A stretch of DNA of 64,000 bases from a virus (IMGVR_UViG_3300032038_000022:1-64000); one strand, 5' to 3'. Counted from the first letter of the stretch, positions 2,330-18,361 are shown. The notes: a model not told the origin generated them from the letters alone. A program made the numbers and translations.

Positions 2330-2722
2330 ATGAAAGATTTTATAGAAGAACAAATAGAATTAGGTTACTTAAGTAGAGATAATAAGCCTAAAATACTAGA
2401 ATCAACGGCAATCGAGAGAATAAAAGAAAATTGGAAACCATATGATCCAGAGGTAGAGTGGCTAAAAACCATAGTATGTGCTCAATTAACAACAAAACAT
2501 TATGCAGTAGCTATTCTTTCACCAAAACATAAAAAGAATTTATTATACCTTTCAATTACACTTTGGAATATATTCATTCTGGGGATTGTAGCTTCAGTAT
2601 ACTATTTCATAGGATATCAAATAGCATTATGTATTTATTTTGGTTGGAATATATTTCTATCAATAGGAATAAAAAAAGTTGTTAGGTATAGAAATCTTAT
2701 AGACTTATATAAATCAATATGA
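2330..2722 (+). CDS. Hypothetical membrane protein
   Basis: Two C-terminal TM segments; start moved to ATG 2330 after the promoter box. Confidence 0.6.
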   Translation: MKDFIEEQIELGYLSRDNKPKILESTAIERIKENWKPYDPEVEWLKTIVCAQLTTKHYAVAILSPKHKKNLLYLSITLWNIFILGIVASVYYFIGYQIALCIYFGWNIFLSIGIKKVVRYRNLIDLYKSI

Positions 2723-3333
2723 AAACTTATATACAAATAACTGGAGGGAGAGGTCCAGTAGAATGTAGTAGAGCTGTAGTTTTAATACTAAAGAAATTTA
2801 TAGCTGATGCAATAAATAAAGGGATAGAATTAACCTTAGTGGATCATGAAGATCATAATACAGAAGATAATTGTATGCTCTCTGTAATTTTAAGCACTAA
2901 AGAAAATGTAGAATCTTTGAAATCTGAATGGGAAGGTACTATCTTATGGGTGGCTACATCAAATCCTTTCAGACCAAAACACAAAAGAAAGAATTGGTTT
3001 GTTGGTATAAACTTCTTTTCTGAAGCAGATACCATTGATATAAAAGAGGAAGATATTTCTTATGAAACTTGCAGATCTAGCGGTCCTGGAGGACAAAACG
3101 TAAATAAGGTTGAAACAGCCGTTAGAGCTATTCATAAACCAACTGGCATTAGTGTTTTAGCAGAAGATGAGAGATCACAGGTAAGAAATAAATCATTAGC
3201 AAAGGAACGACTAATTCTTAAACTTTCAGCTATTAACGAAGAGAAAAAAGCTGAACATGAAAGGAAAATATGGATGAGTCATAATTTTGTTTTGAGAGGA
3301 AATCAAGTAAAGAAATTTGTTGGACCATTATAA
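2719..3333 (+). CDS. prfH: Peptide chain release factor H
   Basis: QITGGRGPVEC, W..T.NPFRP.HKRKNWFVG, RSSGPGGQNVNKVETAVRA; ~200 aa, no RF1/RF2 domain 1. Confidence 0.9.
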   Translation: MKTYIQITGGRGPVECSRAVVLILKKFIADAINKGIELTLVDHEDHNTEDNCMLSVILSTKENVESLKSEWEGTILWVATSNPFRPKHKRKNWFVGINFFSEADTIDIKEEDISYETCRSSGPGGQNVNKVETAVRAIHKPTGISVLAEDERSQVRNKSLAKERLILKLSAINEEKKAEHERKIWMSHNFVLRGNQVKKFVGPL

Positions 3334-6224: not shown

Positions 6225-6297
6225 TCTAGGACATAGTTCAAGCGGGTCAGAACATTCATGAAAATGAAAGACCGAGGTTAGACTCCTCGTGACTAGA
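6225..6297 (+). ncRNA. tRNA-like RNA with a GAAA tetraloop in place of the anticodon loop
   Basis: D arm GTTC/GAAC, arm TTCAT-GAAA-ATGAA, T arm CGAGG-TTAGACT-CCTCG, imperfect acceptor TCTAG..CTAGA. Confidence 0.6.
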
Positions 6298-6319
6298 GAA
6301 AGTACAAGACACATAAAAT

Positions 6320-6392
6320 CGCGAAGTGTTGTAACTGGTTAGCATATAACTCTCATAAGGTTAAGATTCTAGTTCGAGTCTAGACTTCGCGA
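6320..6392 (+). tRNA. tRNA with CAT anticodon (elongator Met or Ile2)
   Basis: Acceptor CGCGAAG/CTTCGCG, anticodon arm TAACT-CTCATAA-GGTTA, T arm TCTAG-TTCGAGT-CTAGA; no encoded CCA. Confidence 0.88.
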
Positions 6393-6408
6393 CAAAAGAG
6401 TAACATAT

Positions 6409-6626: not shown

Positions 6627-7256
6627 ATGGAAATAACGATAACTAGAGCATTGTCAGAACTTAAACTTCAACAGAAGAAGTATGATAAGAAAGTAGAAGA
6701 ATTGCAAGTTATAGCTATAAAGCAGGGAACAAAGCTTCGTCGACCATTTACGGCGCAAACACCGAAAGACTTCTCAGAAAAGTCTAAATCAGCATATCAA
6801 AGTCTTATGTCCATTATGGATAGAATCATTATGATTAAGACTAGGATTGATGAATCTAATGCTACGACGAAGATTAAGATTGGTCAGGTTGAAATGACCG
6901 TTCAGCAAGCATTGGTTGAAAAGAAATTTATAACGCTGAAGAAGTCCTTGCTTAGAAAACTCCAAGACCTGAAAGCAACCAATAATCAAGATCTTGAAAT
7001 TGCAGAACTAGAGCTTACTAGATCAGCAGAGGATTTTCGTAAGGTATTCGCAGGTAATGGAAATAATAAATCAGAAGCAGATATCGAAACAGCAGTTGAA
7101 AACTATAAGAAGTCTGAAGAGATTTCAGTAGTAGATGCTATTGGTATTGATGATGAGATTGCAAGACTCGATGCATACATTGATGAGTTTGAATCAAATG
7201 TAGACTTTGTTCTGTCTGAAAGTAACAGTAAGACATGTATCGTGATTGATGATTAA
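6627..7256 (+). CDS. Coiled-coil protein resembling the DIP1984/septicolysin-like family
   Basis: ITRALSELK N-terminus, I..SN.TT.I..G..EMTV..A middle, VD..LSESN.KT.I C-terminus; family recalled, not searched. Confidence 0.6.
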   Translation: MEITITRALSELKLQQKKYDKKVEELQVIAIKQGTKLRRPFTAQTPKDFSEKSKSAYQSLMSIMDRIIMIKTRIDESNATTKIKIGQVEMTVQQALVEKKFITLKKSLLRKLQDLKATNNQDLEIAELELTRSAEDFRKVFAGNGNNKSEADIETAVENYKKSEEISVVDAIGIDDEIARLDAYIDEFESNVDFVLSESNSKTCIVIDD

Positions 7257-7259
7257 TAT

Positions 7260-7535
7260 ATTGTGATACCTAGTCGAAAGATGCTGAACATAGCGCCCTT
7301 CGATTTATAGGTTAATAGATCAATTTACTAATGAAACAGTATTTATGGTTCAAAGGTTAAAGATCAAAAGCTGAAAGATGAAGGATAAAAGCTTATTTTG
7401 CTCAATAATGAGTGGTTCAAGATTAAAGACTCAGGTCTTAAAGCTTAATCAAATCCACGAATTAGTTCATCACGAAAGTGTAGGGGAAGCAGTTATGCCC
7501 CAGAATCTTGTACGTGGCTGACTAGGTAGCACAAT
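7260..7535 (+). ncRNA. ~276-nt putative ncRNA with long closing stem and periodic AAAG repeats
   Basis: ATTGTGATACCTAGTC (7260-7275) pairs with GACTAGGTAGCACAAT (7520-7535); CCACG/CGTGG inner stem; CAC-GAAA-GTG hairpin; about ten 7-8-nt AAAG-type units. Confidence 0.7.
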
Positions 7536-7540
7536 TTTAT

Positions 7541-7577
7541 AAACCCTTTGTAAGAGATTACATCGGGTTTCTTTTCA
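7541..7577 (+). terminator. Intrinsic terminator
   Basis: AAACCC..TGTAA-GAGA-TTACA..GGGTTT followed by CTTTT. Confidence 0.65.
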
Positions 7578-7824
7578 TTCCCTCAATTCCTTACATATGT
7601 ATGATTATTAAGAAAAGTGAAGATATAGTAGCATTTAATTGGCTATGTATAATTAATGAATATAATCCAGAAGAAGTAGAAGAAATAGAGATATGCAAAA
7701 GAAAATAGAGCAAGAAAAAGATGTTAAAATAGTGAGTGCTGTTTATACCTTCGTCGTTGATATAGCAAGGGTTCTACAAGGAAAAGGTTAGAATTCCTTT
7801 TCTTTCTTTTCCTTATTTGTGAAA

Positions 7825-8568
7825 ATGAAAATAAAAAGAATTATAATAGACGGTCTCTTAGATGGAGAGAAAAATATATGTCTAAACTTAAAAGACAATG
7901 TTAATATTTTAGCTGGTTATAATGGATCGGGAAAAACTGAGACTTTGCATAATATTATTGGAGTTCTAAAATCGGCACTAGAGGAAACAATATTTGAACC
8001 TCATATCCCTGTTACTGGCAAAATCCGAATTGAATTTAATGAGGACTTAGAGGTAGTATGGACACCTGGTTCAATTGCTAAGATTGAGTATACTAGGGAA
8101 CTTCACGATGCTAAAGGATACATAAAGAAAAACTTAAGTATTTTTAATCATTGGGCAGATGAGTATTGGGATCCTGATGAAATAATTGAAGAAGTTAAAC
8201 AAAATATAAGAAACTATGATCTTGACTTGAAGCAAGAATTTTTTCAAGATATCTTTAATGATAAAAGTTTTGAAATCTTAGAGGTCGAGGGAAAATTCTG
8301 TATATCTAAACAAGATACAAATAGACTCTTAAAAATTGATGACTTAAGTATTGGGGAATTACTCTTACTATTAATCATGACTAGACCTGGTATCGATCAA
8401 AATGGAATTTATGTCTTAGATACACCAGAATTTCATATTTGTCTAGATTATCAATATGAATTAATAGATAATCTTCAAAAATATTATCCTAACCTACAAC
8501 TCATTCTTAGTACACATTCACCAAGTTTACTAGGCAAAGGATGGGGTGATACTGTAATTCATATATGA
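7825..8568 (+). CDS. ABC-type (AAA_21/AAA_15-like) ATPase with atypical Walker B
   Basis: GYNGSGKT, LSIGE, YVLDTPE, STHSP; promoter box at 7811-7821. Confidence 0.8.
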   Translation: MKIKRIIIDGLLDGEKNICLNLKDNVNILAGYNGSGKTETLHNIIGVLKSALEETIFEPHIPVTGKIRIEFNEDLEVVWTPGSIAKIEYTRELHDAKGYIKKNLSIFNHWADEYWDPDEIIEEVKQNIRNYDLDLKQEFFQDIFNDKSFEILEVEGKFCISKQDTNRLLKIDDLSIGELLLLLIMTRPGIDQNGIYVLDTPEFHICLDYQYELIDNLQKYYPNLQLILSTHSPSLLGKGWGDTVIHI

Positions 8569-8837
8569 AAAAGACAATGTTACAACAAAAAGCATCTATG
8601 TGTAAGAAAGCATGGAATAATGCAATATATAAAATTCATGCTTTAGAACATGAGATAGAATTAAGAATAGAAAAACGCAATAAGGATAAAGCATCTGGTA
8701 AGGATACTAGTAATCTTCAAGAAGATATTAATAGACATAAGTTGGCCAAGAAAATATGGCACGCAAGATGTAAAGATTGGAAAAAGAAAACATTAATTGT
8801 AAATAAACAAGCGAGCAATGAGAAACAAGGTTATTAA
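8565..8837 (+). CDS. Basic helical hypothetical protein
   Basis: ATGA overlap; resembles the next ORF. Confidence 0.6.
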   Translation: MKKTMLQQKASMCKKAWNNAIYKIHALEHEIELRIEKRNKDKASGKDTSNLQEDINRHKLAKKIWHARCKDWKKKTLIVNKQASNEKQGY

Positions 8838-9072
8838 AAATCAGAGAGCATCTAGGTACAAGAGATGTTGGCTTAATGCAGCAGCGACAGCTACTCAATT
8901 AAATCTTAAAATCAAGCTCCTAACAGCTACTTTAAAAGCAAGTAGAGAGTCGTTGACTAAAGATGAAGTTCAAAATATTCTAAAGAGACGAGTAGCATTA
9001 AGATTGGAACTTAAACAAGCTCACAAACAATGTAAGAAGTATAAAATTGAATTTAAAATTAATAATGAATAG
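8818..9072 (+). CDS. Basic helical hypothetical protein
   Basis: QRASRYKRCWLNA versus QKASMCKKAWNNA in the previous ORF. Confidence 0.6.
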   Translation: MRNKVIKNQRASRYKRCWLNAAATATQLNLKIKLLTATLKASRESLTKDEVQNILKRRVALRLELKQAHKQCKKYKIEFKINNE

Positions 9073-9117: not shown

Positions 9118-10296
9118 ATGAGTAAAATAAAAGAATTATTAGAGAGAAAGGTTAGATTAAATCTAGCTGATGTAAAAGAGCTTACAAAGCTTATTGAAGG
9201 AAAAGTAGATGTAGGGGAATTATTCACCTATGTAAAAGATCTTATTGGAGAAATAGATTTGACAACTTCTATTAGTGATCAAATAAGTCTTATAAATGCA
9301 CAAGGTACCCTTCTAAATAAAATTCTTGGATTAGGGCTTACAGATGAACAGAAGGATAAACTTCTTGTAGAATTTAAAAATAAAGCATATAAAATAACCA
9401 AGGCTAGGAAGGATGCATATACTGCTGATCCAATAGCTACTGGAAAACTTCCTCAGGTATGTTCGGTGAGATATGATGAAGGAAGAGTAATTACAGAACA
9501 ATTCCTCCTAGAAAAAGAGGCAATTTTTGGACAAAAGAATCTCTTATTGGTTATTGATATGCAAAATGACTTTGCTTCTCATGATGGTTCATTATATGTT
9601 ATAGGAGGAGAAGAAGCCAATGCAAATCTAATTTCTTTCATTAGACTAAATAGAGAAAAGATTAGTGAAATCCTATTGACTAGGGATGATCATTATCATA
9701 CACAAATTGGAATGAGTCATGCTTGGCTAGACAAAAATAATAGATTGGTAGATCCTTTTACTAAGATTACAGCTTTACAAGTAGAAAAGGGAGAATATAA
9801 GCCTAGATATATGGAAAAACAGTATGCTATTACCTACTTAAAAGCTATAGAAGCAAAGGGGGCACAGCATACACTTTGGCCTAACCACTGTATACATGGA
9901 TCTCATGGACAACAGTTCAGTGGGGAATTAATTCAGGTACTACAAGAGTGGTCGGAGGTACATAATGGACTTCATTACAAAACAATTGATAAGGGCTATA
10001 GAGATGAAGCCGAGATGTATAGTGTATTCTCCTATGCTGATGATTCACTTCCTGAATTTAGGAAAAACCTATTAGATAATATAGCTAGTGCTGGATTTGA
10101 TAAAATCTTTATTGCAGGATTAGCAAAAGATATTTGTGTTGCGGAATCAGTAAAAGACCTAGTTAAGGATGGACGATTTAAGAATAAACTTGTATTCCTG
10201 AATCACTGTATGGCAAGTATTAATAACAAAGCTACTAGTCTTAAAATTTACGATACAGCAATTAAAGACTATGGAGCTCAATACTATAAGGAGTAG
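9118..10296 (+). CDS. pncA: Nicotinamidase (isochorismatase family) with ~135-aa N-terminal extension
   Basis: LLVIDMQNDF, D.H, WPNHC, K, AGLAKDICV catalytic motifs. Confidence 0.8.
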   Translation: MSKIKELLERKVRLNLADVKELTKLIEGKVDVGELFTYVKDLIGEIDLTTSISDQISLINAQGTLLNKILGLGLTDEQKDKLLVEFKNKAYKITKARKDAYTADPIATGKLPQVCSVRYDEGRVITEQFLLEKEAIFGQKNLLLVIDMQNDFASHDGSLYVIGGEEANANLISFIRLNREKISEILLTRDDHYHTQIGMSHAWLDKNNRLVDPFTKITALQVEKGEYKPRYMEKQYAITYLKAIEAKGAQHTLWPNHCIHGSHGQQFSGELIQVLQEWSEVHNGLHYKTIDKGYRDEAEMYSVFSYADDSLPEFRKNLLDNIASAGFDKIFIAGLAKDICVAESVKDLVKDGRFKNKLVFLNHCMASINNKATSLKIYDTAIKDYGAQYYKE

Positions 10297-16039: not shown

Positions 16040-18361
16040 TTATGGCTGATTATTAGTATCCACCCTGTCTTCGAGGACAGTTTTGTAGTAGGAAGAACTA
16101 TTATTCTCTTTAGTTCTTTCCATGTGTTCAAGGGTAAGTTGGTTACCAAACTTATCGATGAACTCTAGAAACTTACTTCGACTCATGGCGCCATGTTCTC
16201 CAAGATAAAGGCCCATTTTTCTAATAAGTTTTTTCTCAGAGAATAAGTTTTTGTAAGTTTCATCTTTTAACTCATCCCATCTAGTTCTCATAGCTTCTTC
16301 TAGAGTACATTCATGGTTCTTATAGATTAGTTTTGAGTGTAATCCAAAGCCTGAAGACATACCGTTTCCGGTTTCCTCTACTTCGAAGTTAGAGAATGAC
16401 ATAGGTTCAAAATATCCGACTCTTAGTACTGCTAAGGATAGTGATTTCCATGCTGATCTAATATCGTTACTAGATCCTAAGAGGCACCTTTCTGGTCTAT
16501 CGCCTCCATAGATTAATTGTTCAGCAAGGTATCCGCCAAAAGATATCATAATATCATTATCTACATCAGCTTTACATTCTATTTCTCCTTCTTTTTCAGG
16601 ATCATAAGTACTACAGAACCCACCTTTATCAGTAGACACTGCCACTATATTTTGTGGTGCTTTGCCTGTAAGAAGTGCCATCATAATAGCATGTCCGGAT
16701 TCATGAACTCCGCTAATAAATCGTGTAGCTCTTGATGTAGGATTCCTAAGTGACCCAAGTTGTAATTTATAATCATATTCTACTACCCTTCCGTCTTGGA
16801 ACGTAAGTATTATTGTAGTTGTAGGTACTTTAAACTCACGGTCTGTCCAATCAGATTTATCTTTAATATCAATACTAACCCTAGTATCATCTTCTTTCAT
16901 ATTGATTAATATTTCAGAGAAATATGGGGTTAGCATTGATCCAATAGTAGTAAAGATGGGTCGTACACCTTGAGTAGGATATACACCTTCCGCATAGAGT
17001 AGGTTATAAATTTCTTCACTAACAATTACTTCTAGATTAGGAGCAACAGTTTTAAAGTCTTTTATAATTCTCTCTACTTCCAGTCTAATAATTTTTTCGA
17101 AGTGAACTTTCTTCATCGTTGGATACTTGATCATATTATTTCCTATTCTAGCGATTTGTTCTGCTCTAAAGCGCTGTGTTAGTGCTTCTTTGATATCAGA
17201 GACAGTTACTTTGCTAGTAATATCATTAAATATGTCAGCGTCCATATCAGGATTAAGTTCATCTTCGACGCCAAAAGCTTCATCAAGATTTCCAATAATA
17301 AATACCAGACATCTTGAACAGTTGAGAGTCTTAGGAGAATTACAAATCTTAGTTACATTTTTTAAGATTTTGTAAACTTCAAGGACAGTCTCAGCTGAAT
17401 AAAGATCTTGAATAGTTTTTTTACTTAGTTCAAAATCAACAGAATTCAGTCGTTTTACTATAGTTTTAATCTGGCTAATAGGAACTAGTTTTAGAGGTCT
17501 ATAAGGATCTTTTTTCTTTTTACTTGTATCCTCTTCTAGTTCTTCCATAGAAGATCGATTTATAATATGACTTTCTTCTTCATCTTCACCATCGTAATCA
17601 ACCTCTTCCTGTTCATTAGGTTTTGCTGTTTCGCCTGTAGGGATATTAATTTTTCTTTCAAGACTTGGAATTTCACGCCATGGATAGACGTAACATCCAA
17701 TATTCTCTAAGATTTCCTTAATATCATTTGGGTCAGTAATTACATTTTCTTTTACCCTAATTCCAGGATATTTTTTTGCGAAAGGTTCCAGATCTTCCAA
17801 GAATGAACAGAACTTATTATAGTCATAATTATAAGTATCTGTTAGATCAAGGTTGCCATCATCAATAATTTTCCAAATGGGTCTTAAGCTACTTTTAACT
17901 ACTTCCTCATGTTGTTCATTAAGTGTTCTGGCATACTGAAACTCATCAAAAATGTATACAAGATCTTGAGCCATATCCTCATTTGCTTTTCCAAGAGAGC
18001 TAGGATCTTCTGAATCAACCCCAAGAATTTCACAGGTTTGATTAATAATACTATTAATACTATTATTATCAGACCCTGCTTCTCGTCCACAGTCAAAATA
18101 GAGGGTTTTGTTATTAATTTTCAATAATTCTGTTAATCTTTTCACAACAGAGCTTTTACCAGTACCAGTCATTCCAAATAGACTTACGATAACTGGTCTT
18201 TTTATAACCTCTGGAGTTATATACCAAGGTTTCACTGATTTCATAATCTCATCAATAACGTCATCCAGTCCTACAAATTCTTTTTTAAGGATTTCTGTAG
18301 CGGACTTTAGAGTATTAATTCGATCCTGTCGTGAAAGTTGAATCTCTTCTTTCTCTAACAT
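16040..18361 (-). CDS. Clp-like AAA+ ATPase fused to an FtsH/M41-type zinc protease domain
   Basis: GMTGTGKS, IFDEFQ, RFRAEQIARIG, GVRP; C-terminal HESGH...GGYLAE...GS..D; no TM segment. Confidence 0.8.
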   Translation of the reverse strand: MLEKEEIQLSRQDRINTLKSATEILKKEFVGLDDVIDEIMKSVKPWYITPEVIKRPVIVSLFGMTGTGKSSVVKRLTELLKINNKTLYFDCGREAGSDNNSINSIINQTCEILGVDSEDPSSLGKANEDMAQDLVYIFDEFQYARTLNEQHEEVVKSSLRPIWKIIDDGNLDLTDTYNYDYNKFCSFLEDLEPFAKKYPGIRVKENVITDPNDIKEILENIGCYVYPWREIPSLERKINIPTGETAKPNEQEEVDYDGEDEEESHIINRSSMEELEEDTSKKKKDPYRPLKLVPISQIKTIVKRLNSVDFELSKKTIQDLYSAETVLEVYKILKNVTKICNSPKTLNCSRCLVFIIGNLDEAFGVEDELNPDMDADIFNDITSKVTVSDIKEALTQRFRAEQIARIGNNMIKYPTMKKVHFEKIIRLEVERIIKDFKTVAPNLEVIVSEEIYNLLYAEGVYPTQGVRPIFTTIGSMLTPYFSEILINMKEDDTRVSIDIKDKSDWTDREFKVPTTTIILTFQDGRVVEYDYKLQLGSLRNPTSRATRFISGVHESGHAIMMALLTGKAPQNIVAVSTDKGGFCSTYDPEKEGEIECKADVDNDIMISFGGYLAEQLIYGGDRPERCLLGSSNDIRSAWKSLSLAVLRVGYFEPMSFSNFEVEETGNGMSSGFGLHSKLIYKNHECTLEEAMRTRWDELKDETYKNLFSEKKLIRKMGLYLGEHGAMSRSKFLEFIDKFGNQLTLEHMERTKENNSSSYYKTVLEDRVDTNNQP

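What the first reader, a model, noticed from the sequence alone, without database searches (positions are those of the whole stretch)
6627..7577. Coiled-coil gene followed by a ~276-nt closed-stem RNA with periodic AAAG repeats: candidate protein-RNA system
Seen: 3 nt after the stop codon, a 16-nt arm (7260-7275) pairs with 7520-7535 with one mismatch, enclosing ~245 nt with no listed ORF. Inside are two tracts of 7-8-nt units: GTTCAAAG GTTAAAG ATCAAAAG CTGAAAG ATGAAGG ATAAAAG (7348-7391) and GTTCAAG ATTAAAG ACTCAGG TCTTAAAG (~7415-7443). A small CTCA/TGAG hairpin separates them. A CCACG/CGTGG subdomain carries a GAAA tetraloop and a GGGG/CCCC hairpin, and a separate terminator follows. Known: evenly spaced short RNA repeats are read by ring-shaped oligomers (TRAP) or act as antitoxin repeats (type III TA). 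Inference: the 209-aa protein, which I recall as resembling the oligomeric DIP1984-like family, binds this RNA one repeat per subunit, forming an RNP with an unknown role such as counter-defence, a toxin/antitoxin pair or a protein sponge.
Basis: partly seen in the sequence, partly recalled or inferred. Interest (0 to 1): 0.88.

Follow-up and report, generated by a model that had tools for sequence, protein, structure and literature searches.

The report
Heptad-repeat RNA with partner protein
Directly behind a small helical-protein gene, this large phage encodes a real, doubly knotted 276-base non-coding RNA carrying about ten evenly spaced 7-base units. The same gene-plus-RNA pair recurs in phage T5, many other large phages and some bacterial chromosomes, matches no catalogued RNA family, and has no known function.

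Summary
The RNA at 7260-7535 is closed by a 17-pair stem. It holds an H-type pseudoknot, two tracts of 7-nt units (consensus n-U-n-A-A-a-g) and a structured 3' domain. It starts 3 nt after the stop of a 209-aa gene.

The pair is conserved:
- 64 of 78 viral loci with a homologous gene carry the RNA signature downstream, against 6 upstream and 1 on the reverse strand. Most of the 14 misses show the RNA by eye.
- All five Gram-positive phages examined have it, as do T5 (after T5.085), BF23 and 4MG.
- 47 of 61 bacterial loci have it, some among ordinary chromosomal genes.
- The closing stem and helix P5 are 98.4% paired, with 217 double-change cells (0 of 500 shuffles reach this).
- No other neighbouring protein is conserved. 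tRNA genes often flank the RNA or sit inside it.

The protein is a distant DIP1984-like helical bundle, and a symmetric homodimer is predicted. No Rfam family, reverse transcriptase, RtcB or toxin-antitoxin signature fits.

Most likely this is an undescribed ribonucleoprotein. Binding, expression and function are untested here. Earlier notes of this scan report the same system on eight other genomes.

The parts
6627..7256 (+). Partner protein gene, 209 aa. Member of PHROG 1491 (mis-annotated 'tail fiber protein'; T5.085 family). Distant DIP1984/DUF6847-like helical bundle.
   Evidence: ORF. phrog_1491 E 4e-48, full length. Weak hits to NF038048 and PF20935. AF2 pLDDT 92. Only fold relative is 3kdq. 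3428 clusters at 50% identity in the family.
7260..7276 (+). P1, 5' arm of the closing stem. It ends in ..CG; the last G forms an invariant G.U.
   Evidence: 10 of 11 pairs show changes on both sides; G.U in 38/38.
7278..7286 (+). P2 5' strand (AAGAUGCUG). A long-range helix to 7501-7509 that crosses P5, forming a second pseudoknot. Probable.
   Evidence: Cognate score 5.9 against non-cognate 4.4. Covarying columns 15/590 and 17/588 of A7.
7297..7321 (+). H-type pseudoknot. S1 is 7297-7299 with 7309-7311. S2 is 7302-7308 with 7315-7321. Loop 3 is UUA.
   Evidence: Seen in most relatives, with S1 variants CCC/GGG, CCG/CGG, CCUC/GAGG and GUCC/GGAC. S2 cognate score 6.1 against non-cognate 3.8.
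7322..7346 (+). Variable region. It is short here. In relatives it holds hairpins, whole tRNAs or circularly permuted tRNA-like modules.
   Evidence: A 22-nt indel falls here in close relatives.
7348..7391 (+). Heptad tract 1: six units of consensus n-U-n-A-A-a-g.
   Evidence: In the column profile the A at unit position 4 is 100% conserved and the U at position 2 is 82-97%.
7392..7414 (+). Spacer with a small hairpin (CUCA 7401-7404 / UGAG 7409-7412).
   Evidence: The hairpin is lengthened by a compensating change in L090 and L091.
7415..7454 (+). Heptad tract 2 (about four units), followed by the conserved AAUCAAAU lead-in to P5.
7455..7518 (+). 3' domain. P5 is CCACG 7455-7459 with CGUGG 7513-7517. 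It encloses hairpin CAC-GAAA-GUG (7471-7480), P6 GGGG/CCCC (7483-7486/7498-7501) and the P2 3' strand (7501-7509). The conserved C7518 follows.
   Evidence: P5 is 98.9% paired and 4 of 5 pairs show changes on both sides. P6 varies in sequence but keeps its pairing, judged by eye.
7519..7535 (+). P1, 3' arm of the closing stem. It begins UG.
7541..7575 (+). Terminator-like hairpin (AAACCC../..GGGUUU) followed by a T-run. It ends the gene-plus-RNA transcription unit.
   Evidence: Fold. Not found by the simple scan, whose loop limit it exceeds. Bacterial relatives have clear terminators at the same place.

Best explanation
The gene at 6627-7256 and the RNA at 7260-7535 are the two halves of a conserved, self-contained module. 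It is most likely a ribonucleoprotein.

Shown here:
- The RNA is a real structured RNA read from the + strand. It is closed by P1, tied by an H-type pseudoknot and a probable second long-range pseudoknot (P2 crossing P5), and ends in a conserved 3' domain.
- It presents about ten (here) to about thirteen 7-nt units, n-U-n-A-A-a-g. These are conserved in sequence, not in pairing.
- The protein gene is the RNA's only constant neighbour.

Inferred:
- Gene and RNA are co-transcribed. The gap is 3 nt and a terminator follows.
- The RNA is released as a stable species. In relatives a tRNA gene starts 3-50 nt after P1, so RNase P would cut there.
- Dimers of the elongated helical-bundle protein bind the RNA through their conserved polar tips (R7, K13, R66, K71, S77-N78, T81, K99, D193, S197-N200). 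The heptads would be the periodic docking sites, giving a multi-protein particle.

More speculative: its work concerns tRNA or translation-linked RNA biology. It sits in tRNA clusters. It tolerates or carries tRNAs and permuted tRNA mimics. From my own knowledge, its heptads resemble U33-N34-A35-A36-A37 anticodon loops. It is kept with the same heptad consensus in Gram-negative and Gram-positive phages and in bacterial chromosomes, so any outside target would have to be universal.
For: Structure:
- P1 and P5 are 98.4% paired, with 217 double-change cells. 0 of 500 shuffles reach this, and slid controls give 31-40% paired.
- The G.U at the top of P1 is present in 38 of 38 sequences. About 90 G.U cells against 10 mismatches fit an RNA read from the + strand.
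- Pseudoknot S2 scores 6.1 in cognate pairs against 3.8 in non-cognate pairs. P2 scores 5.9 against 4.4.

Linkage:
- The RNA signature lies downstream in 64 of 78 viral loci, against 6 upstream and 1 on the reverse complement.
- It is present in Bacillus, Lactococcus, Clostridium, Brevibacillus and Clostridioides phages.
- T5, BF23 and 4MG have matching unannotated gaps.
- It is present in 47 of 61 bacterial loci by the strict signature. The B. pumilus-group, L215, L219, L221, L240, L256 and L259 misses show it by eye; L264, a mis-parsed locus, does not.
- No other protein neighbour is shared by more than 7-8 loci.

Heptads: the A at unit position 4 is invariant with a 7-nt period, the U at position 2 is 82-97%, and 10-13 units is the commonest count.

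tRNA context: 29 of 60 loci hold tRNA genes. Several start 3-50 nt after P1, and five lie inside the RNA.

Protein: pLDDT 92. For the homodimer, ipSAE is 0.65 against 0.00 for the best of 3 controls. That mark was reached by 20 of 30 proteins solved as pairs of one chain and by 1 of 23 solved as single chains. The runs agree in at least 98% of contacts, and the partner's pLDDT is at least 89. The conserved residues lie outside that interface.

Close relatives keep the RNA core about 98% identical while the protein is 93-94% identical.
Against: - No tool here could test protein-RNA binding, and no RNA data could be obtained, so expression, ends and stability are unshown.
- The protein is mildly acidic overall (pI about 5.5), which is unusual for an RNA binder.
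- Genetic linkage could also arise if the protein only processes, stabilises or regulates the RNA.
- Knock-down of T5.085 gave no fitness defect in the laboratory (PMC11879866, supplementary file 16), so the module is dispensable there.
- One clade (L017, L019, L030, L032) has a different element downstream: (GGAAA)n closed by long perfect inverted repeats.
- The link to tRNA biology rests on context and resemblance only.
Confidence: 0.55

Rival explanations
1. The RNA is a decoy or sponge for a universal cellular factor. Candidates are the 30S subunit or S1-like proteins, an enzyme or nuclease that reads anticodon loops, or RNase P. The heptads and tRNA-like inserts would be the bait. The upstream protein would only fold, protect or load the RNA.
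For: - The heptad consensus is the same in phages of Proteobacteria and Firmicutes and in bacteria, so a universal ligand is possible.
- tRNAs and permuted tRNA mimics lie inside the RNA, and it sits in tRNA clusters.
- Tandem NTNAAAG heptamers also occur just upstream of start codons in unrelated viral contigs.
- The protein is acidic.
Against: - The only element that is always co-inherited is the protein.
- No host factor is identified.
- Lineage-restricted candidates do not fit the host range. From my own knowledge, RNase E is absent from Firmicutes.
- The tRNA-like inserts are optional, and this window lacks one.
Confidence: 0.2
2. The RNA is a self-assembling architectural RNA in the manner of ROOL and GOLLD, which are large phage RNAs near tRNAs that form multimeric cages. 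The protein would be an accessory.
For: - Size, ornate pseudoknotted fold, phage and tRNA-cluster context, and embedded tRNAs.
- The resemblance to GOLLD and ROOL is from my own knowledge. An earlier scan note (e1-5736630) raised it as well.
Against: - No Rfam match to ROOL or GOLLD.
- Those RNAs have no dedicated protein partner.
- Nothing here tests RNA-RNA assembly.
Confidence: 0.1
3. The element acts in cis, as a 3' UTR that stabilises or autoregulates the mRNA of the upstream gene.
For: It starts 3 nt after the stop codon, is probably co-transcribed, and a terminator follows.
Against: - 260-430 nt with two pseudoknots and a dozen sequence-conserved heptads is far more than a stabiliser needs.
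- In relatives it is followed within 3-50 nt by tRNAs, or holds tRNAs, which implies processing into a separate RNA.
- The RNA core is more conserved than the protein in close relatives.
Confidence: 0.07
4. A toxin-antitoxin pair of the type III kind, with repeat RNA neutralising a protein toxin. Alternatively, a DNA-level element such as iterons or an origin.
For: Short repeats lie next to a small gene.
Against: - The units are 7 nt, not about 35 nt, and lie downstream of the gene rather than upstream.
- The protein has no match in PADLOC and is a helical bundle, not a ToxN/AbiQ-like RNase.
- Copies are kept stably among housekeeping genes.
- Against a DNA element: the invariant G.U and about 90 G.U cells would be A.C mismatches on the other strand.
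Confidence: 0.04

Closest known systems
DIP1984 family / DUF6847 (NF038048, PF20935; crystal structure 3KDQ, function unknown)
   Same: Helical-bundle fold. It is the only sequence-profile and fold relative found.
   Different: Scores lie far below the family cut-offs. This protein is about 209 aa against about 150. Nothing is known of the function of DIP1984 itself, and no papers were found.
TRAP with the trp leader, and HutP with the hut leader (Bacillus): proteins that read evenly spaced short RNA motifs (from my own knowledge)
   Same: A row of evenly spaced, sequence-conserved, probably single-stranded short motifs. HutP sites also have a 7-nt period.
   Different: TRAP and HutP are beta-rich rings that act on mRNA leaders. 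Here the protein is an elongated helical dimer. The motifs sit in a closed, pseudoknotted stand-alone RNA encoded after the gene.
tmRNA-SmpB and Ro-Y RNA (YrlA) particles
   Same: An RNA closed by pairing of its two ends, with pseudoknots, a single-stranded central stretch and tRNA-like modules. A dedicated protein partner. Found in both bacteria and phages (Y RNA mimicry of tRNA: PMC4201824).
   Different: ARAGORN finds no tmRNA. There is no T-arm or CCA at the 3' end, no SmpB or TROVE protein, and no Rfam hit. The tRNA-like module is optional and absent from this window.
GOLLD and ROOL (large phage-associated RNAs near tRNA genes; from my own knowledge)
   Same: Large ornate RNAs of phages and prophages that lie in tRNA regions and sometimes embed tRNAs. 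Function unknown.
   Different: No sequence or structure match. This RNA is smaller, has heptad arrays and has an obligatory partner gene.
Repeat-motif sponge RNAs (CsrB/RsmZ for CsrA, CrcZ for Hfq/Crc; from my own knowledge)
   Same: Many copies of a short A-rich motif in one RNA of 250-400 nt.
   Different: Those motifs sit in hairpin loops without a strict period, and the bound protein is encoded elsewhere. Here the period is strict and the partner gene is adjacent.
Type III toxin-antitoxin systems (ToxIN, AbiQ/antiQ)
   Same: A repeat RNA next to a small protein gene, in a phage-related context.
   Different: Unit length, gene order and protein fold all differ, and there is no PADLOC match.

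Membership tests
PHROG 1491 (annotated 'tail fiber protein'; T5.085 family) | Full-length match to the family profile | tested here: met
   E 4.1e-48, residues 2-207 on profile positions 4-209 of 211. The name is probably wrong: the gene lies in early or tRNA regions and also in bacterial chromosomes.
DIP1984 family (NF038048) / DUF6847 (PF20935) | Score at or above the curated cut-off | tested here: not met
   22.8 bits against a cut-off of 70. 19.3 bits against 27. A remote relative only.
DIP1984 family (NF038048) / DUF6847 (PF20935) | Same fold as 3KDQ | tested here: inconclusive
   Foldseek's top hit is 3kdq_C, E 3.5e-3 and probability 1.00, but the TM-score is only 0.37/0.48. The profile against PDB gives E 0.0027.
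Any Rfam 15 family (including tmRNA, RNase P, Y RNA, ROOL, GOLLD, RAGATH-27, RAGATH-19) | Covariance-model match at the RNA | tested here: not met
   No hit at E up to 10 on 7257-7540. None in 26 related loci. RF03100 and RF03096 give only chance-level hits elsewhere in the record.
tmRNA | tRNA-like acceptor and T-arm formed by the two ends, 3' CCA, and a tag reading frame | tested here: not met
   ARAGORN finds no tmRNA in the window. The 3' arm is followed by UUUUAUAAA, not CCA.
Type III toxin-antitoxin (ToxIN-like) | Tandem antitoxin repeats of about 34-36 nt upstream of an endoribonuclease toxin gene | tested here: not met
   The units are 7 nt and lie downstream. No PADLOC family matches. 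The protein is a helical bundle.
TRAP-like ring reader of RNA repeats | Ring of 11-12 beta-sandwich subunits, each binding one triplet | tested here: not met
   The model is all-helical with a small sheet, and a two-fold symmetric dimer is predicted. Higher oligomers were not tested.
Retron non-coding RNA | Adjacent reverse transcriptase gene | tested here: not met
   No RVT_1 match in the 118.9-kb record. No conserved neighbour in 78 viral or 61 bacterial loci.
Ro-Y RNA / RtcB RNA-repair module | TROVE (Ro) or RtcB gene in the same operon | tested here: not met
   No RtcB in the record, and no such neighbour among the recurrent clusters. TROVE was not searched separately. In T5 the next gene, T5.084, carries a cyclic-phosphate processing receiver domain (PF20274, E 3e-15). 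That is a hint only.

The most novel reading that the evidence does not exclude
This is a previously unrecognised, widely distributed ribonucleoprotein of bacteria and large tRNA-rich phages. Its RNA would display a row of about a dozen anticodon-loop-like or codon-like heptads, plus optional permuted tRNA mimics, on a doubly pseudoknotted scaffold. With its dimeric partner protein it would act on the tRNA or translation apparatus, for example by titrating or guiding an enzyme or nuclease that reads anticodon loops. That would make it comparable in standing to tmRNA-SmpB or Ro-Y RNA.
Probability: 0.15. Interest if true: 0.92.

Novelty: categorically new. Interest (0 to 1): 0.82.

Why it matters
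If it holds, a whole protein-RNA particle has gone unnoticed in one of the oldest model phages. In T5 it would be T5.085 plus an unannotated 360-nt gap. It would also be present in hundreds of sequenced phages and in Bacillus and Sporosarcina chromosomes.

The protein family counts about 3,400 clusters at 50% identity and is routinely mislabelled 'tail fiber protein'. The RNA is absent from Rfam.

The system can be tested directly in T5 with E. coli and in Bacillus pumilus. It bears on why large phages carry tRNA clusters. It also offers a natural scaffold with strictly periodic protein-docking sites and a slot that accepts whole tRNAs.

Tried and rejected
- Sequencing-run look-up.
- Covariance model of the whole RNA. 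It was not built, because full-length alignments exceed 400 columns or about 190 model positions. Structure was tested instead with the count of structure pairs and cognate/non-cognate helix scores.
- MAFFT columns for P2 and P6. They slip register, so these helices rest on weaker evidence.
- All-against-all column covariation. It is swamped by G/U-rich columns.
- Scan of viral contigs for four consecutive TNAAAG units. It is not specific. Only 5 of 80 hits had the family gene upstream. Most of the rest are perfect tandem heptamers of another kind, so it cannot tell whether the RNA occurs without the gene.
- First protein-pattern scan with the single sequence. It found nothing; the alignment-based scan worked.
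- Nucleotide search of the phage collection. No match.
- Literature searches for DIP1984, DUF6847, T5.085, phrog_1491, and T5 stable or structured RNAs. They found no description. The catalogue of 10,006 viral candidate RNAs (PMC10690425) reports IMG/VR-derived candidates of 29-151 nt. It may contain fragments, which I could not check.
- RNase E decoy idea. Set aside because the same heptads occur in phages of Firmicutes.
- RNase P-like ribozyme and tmRNA-like readings. Set aside for lack of any model match.

Full report
**What is in the window.** A 209-aa ORF runs from 6627 to 7256. Three bases after its stop, 7260-7276 pairs with 7519-7535: 17 positions, one A.G mismatch and a terminal G.U. 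The enclosed 276-nt stretch holds only one listed ORF, of 47 aa (7378-7521). It lies across the 7-nt-periodic tract, which cannot keep a reading frame. As RNA the stretch folds to -80.7 kcal/mol, z = -3.16, and no shuffle out of 100 does as well. The window is part of a 118.9-kb viral record judged about one third complete. A tRNA-Met gene and a degenerate tRNA-like sequence lie just upstream.

**The protein.**
- It matches PHROG 1491 over its full length (E 4e-48). That family is annotated 'tail fiber protein'.
- It matches DIP1984/DUF6847 only weakly and below the cut-offs.
- A profile of 33 homologues finds 3KDQ (the DIP1984 structure) at E 0.0027.
- The AlphaFold model is confident (pLDDT 92). 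It is an elongated helical bundle whose N-terminus, 82-91 hairpin and C-terminus meet in a small sheet at one end.
- Its only fold relative is again 3kdq.
- Invariant residues (R7, K71, S77, N78, T81, K99, D193, S197-N200) cluster at that end.
- A symmetric homodimer is predicted. ipSAE is 0.65 against 0.00 for the best of three controls. That mark was reached by 20 of 30 proteins solved as pairs of one chain and by 1 of 23 solved as single chains. The runs agree in at least 98% of contacts, and the partner's pLDDT is at least 89. The interface uses the helices and leaves the conserved tips free.
- The family holds 3428 clusters at 50% identity, nearly all 200-220 aa.
- It is present in 723 phage records: T5-like, rV5-like, Vibrio, Pseudomonas, Klebsiella, Erwinia and Ralstonia jumbo phages, and Bacillus, Brevibacillus, Lactococcus and Clostridium phages.

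**The RNA is conserved with the gene.**
- In 80 viral loci found through the protein, most have an ORF-free gap of 300-700 nt after the gene.
- In that gap a long-range stem starts a few bases after the stop. Its 5' arm ends ..CG and is followed by AAAA. Its 3' arm starts UG and is preceded by GGC.
- A strict signature was defined as P5 pairing, then C[UA][GA], with at least seven UNAA within the 160 nt upstream. It is found downstream in 64 of 78 loci, upstream in 6, and on the reverse complement in 1. Most of the 14 misses show the RNA by eye.
- T5 (after T5.085), BF23 and 4MG have the matching unannotated gap.
- Five phages of Gram-positive hosts have the same architecture and the same heptads.
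- After reading earlier scan notes I also scanned bacterial genomes and found 61 loci. Of these, 47 carry the strict signature, and the B. pumilus-group, L215, L219, L221, L240, L256 and L259 misses show the RNA by eye; L264, a mis-parsed locus, does not.
- In the Bacillus pumilus group and in Sporosarcina the pair sits among ordinary chromosomal genes: an amino-acid permease, methyltransferases and a sigma factor.
- No other protein neighbour is shared by more than 7-8 loci in either set.

**Structure.**
- On a 38-sequence alignment, P1 (11 inner pairs) and P5 (5 pairs) are 98.4% paired. They have 217 cells changed on both sides and 14 of 16 pairs show such changes. No shuffle out of 500 reaches these values, and partners slid by 1-3 columns give 31-40% paired.
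- P1 helped to choose the sequences, so its score is partly circular. P5 did not, and it is 98.9% paired.
- The top pair of P1 is G.U in all 38 sequences. About 90 G.U cells against 10 mismatches argue for an RNA read from the + strand rather than a DNA element.
- An H-type pseudoknot follows P1. It reads CCC-NN-S2-NGGG-UUAA-S2'. S1 varies as CCC/GGG, CCG/CGG, CCUC/GAGG or GUCC/GGAC. S2 differs in almost every lineage yet stays complementary: cognate score 6.1 against 3.8 for non-cognate pairs.
- The A-rich joiner after P1 pairs with the stretch between P6 and the P5 3' strand. This helix, P2, crosses P5 and so forms a second pseudoknot. Its cognate score is 5.9 against 4.4, and two columns covary clearly. 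I rate P2 probable.
- In two relatives with 93-94% identical proteins, the RNA core is about 98% identical. Indels fall only in the variable region and the spacer. The window's single A.G mismatch in P1 is A-U or G.U there.

**The heptads.** In alignment columns the units read n-U-n-A-A-a-g. The A at position 4 is invariant in five of the six units profiled and 97% in the sixth, the U at position 2 is 82-97%, and the period is strictly 7 nt. A crude count most often gives 10-13 units per RNA, in two tracts. The window has about ten. The motif is conserved in sequence, not in pairing, so it is most likely read as single strand. From my own knowledge, the pattern resembles positions 33-37 of the anticodon loops of tRNAs that read UUN codons. 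It can equally be read as NAA codons. I could test neither reading.

**tRNA context.**
- 29 of 60 loci carry tRNA genes within 2.5 kb.
- In several loci a tRNA starts 3-50 nt after the 3' arm of P1. The RNA would then be released together with the tRNAs.
- In five loci a whole tRNA lies inside the variable region.
- Other relatives carry circularly permuted tRNA-like modules there. The order is T-arm, 3' acceptor strand (sometimes with ACCA), a loop, 5' acceptor strand, D-arm, and sometimes an anticodon arm.
- The window's RNA has only a short variable region.

**What it is not.**
- No Rfam 15 family matches the RNA in the window at E up to 10, nor in 26 related loci.
- RAGATH-27 and RAGATH-19, named in earlier scan notes for other members, give only chance-level hits elsewhere in this record.
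- ARAGORN finds no tmRNA.
- The record has no reverse transcriptase and no RtcB.
- The protein has no PADLOC match.
- Searches of the paper library found no description. A catalogue of short viral candidate RNAs (PMC10690425) might hold fragments.
- Knock-down of T5.085 gave no fitness defect in the laboratory (PMC11879866, supplementary file 16).

**Reading.** The firm result is a real, complex, conserved RNA that is genetically tied to one protein family across phages and bacteria. The most economical mechanism is a ribonucleoprotein in which protein dimers dock on the periodic heptads. This sets aside lineage-restricted candidates such as RNase E. Stable chromosomal copies among housekeeping genes speak against a purely anti-defence or toxin-antitoxin role. 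The tRNA context points, weakly, to tRNA or translation-linked RNA biology.

**Relation to earlier notes.** Earlier notes of this scan describe the same system on eight other genomes. I reached the anatomy and the phage distribution before reading them. They prompted the bacterial scan and the RAGATH and RtcB checks.

Noticed in passing
window 7819-8568 (+): The next gene encodes a 249-aa ABC-type ATPase. It matches a short AriA (PARIS) model of PADLOC over its full length (PDLC04164, E 2e-33), and matches PtuA models more weakly. The two small ORFs after it (8565-8837, 8818-9072) were not scanned against any family library, so whether a TOPRIM (AriB) partner follows is unknown. The same arrangement occurs in the close relative L090.
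   Followed up: partly
window 2719-3333 (+): A 204-aa protein with an RF-1 (peptidyl-tRNA hydrolase, GGQ-type) domain, E 1e-25. A translation-rescue-type gene about 3.3 kb upstream of the module.
   Followed up: no
window 6227-6393 (+): tRNA-Met (6320-6393), preceded by a degenerate tRNA-like sequence (6227-6296). Rfam scores the latter at 29.2 bits, right at threshold, with a shortened anticodon arm, and ARAGORN does not call it.
   Followed up: no
L020, L031, L040, L049, L054, L061, L063 (variable region of the RNA): Circularly permuted tRNA-like modules: T-arm, 3' acceptor strand (ACCA in L031 and L061), a loop, 5' acceptor strand, D-arm, and sometimes an anticodon arm. Whole tRNAs in normal order sit at the same place in L014, L056, L063, L067 and L072.
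   Followed up: partly
L017, L019, L030, L032 (downstream of the homologous gene): One clade has a different element in place of the RNA. Long, nearly perfect inverted repeats (up to 64 bp) enclose purine-rich (GGAAA)n arrays in L017 and L019. L030 and L032 carry the AAAGGAAACC-type palindromes but no such array.
   Followed up: no
L092-L171 (unrelated viral contigs): Perfect tandem heptamers such as GTTCAAA, AGTTAAA and AGCTGAA (4-15 copies) are common in intergenic regions of other viral contigs. They often lie directly upstream of a start codon and have no family gene nearby.
   Followed up: partly
L084 2582-2899 (T5.084, next gene after the RNA in T5): It encodes a cyclic-phosphate processing receiver domain (PF20274, E 3e-15). 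This is a possible link to RNA-end processing in T5-like phages only.
   Followed up: partly
L022 3904-5076 and six other loci; L087 1-163: A PIN-PhoH (PhoH2-type RNA helicase/RNase) gene is the most frequent protein neighbour. It is found in 7 of about 80 loci, and a PhoH gene lies near the module in Clostridium phage D-1873.
   Followed up: no
window 9118-10296 (+) and 16040-18361 (-): A 392-aa protein with a C-terminal isochorismatase-type domain, and a 773-aa AAA plus M41 peptidase (FtsH-like) protein. Both are unusual cargo for a phage.
   Followed up: no
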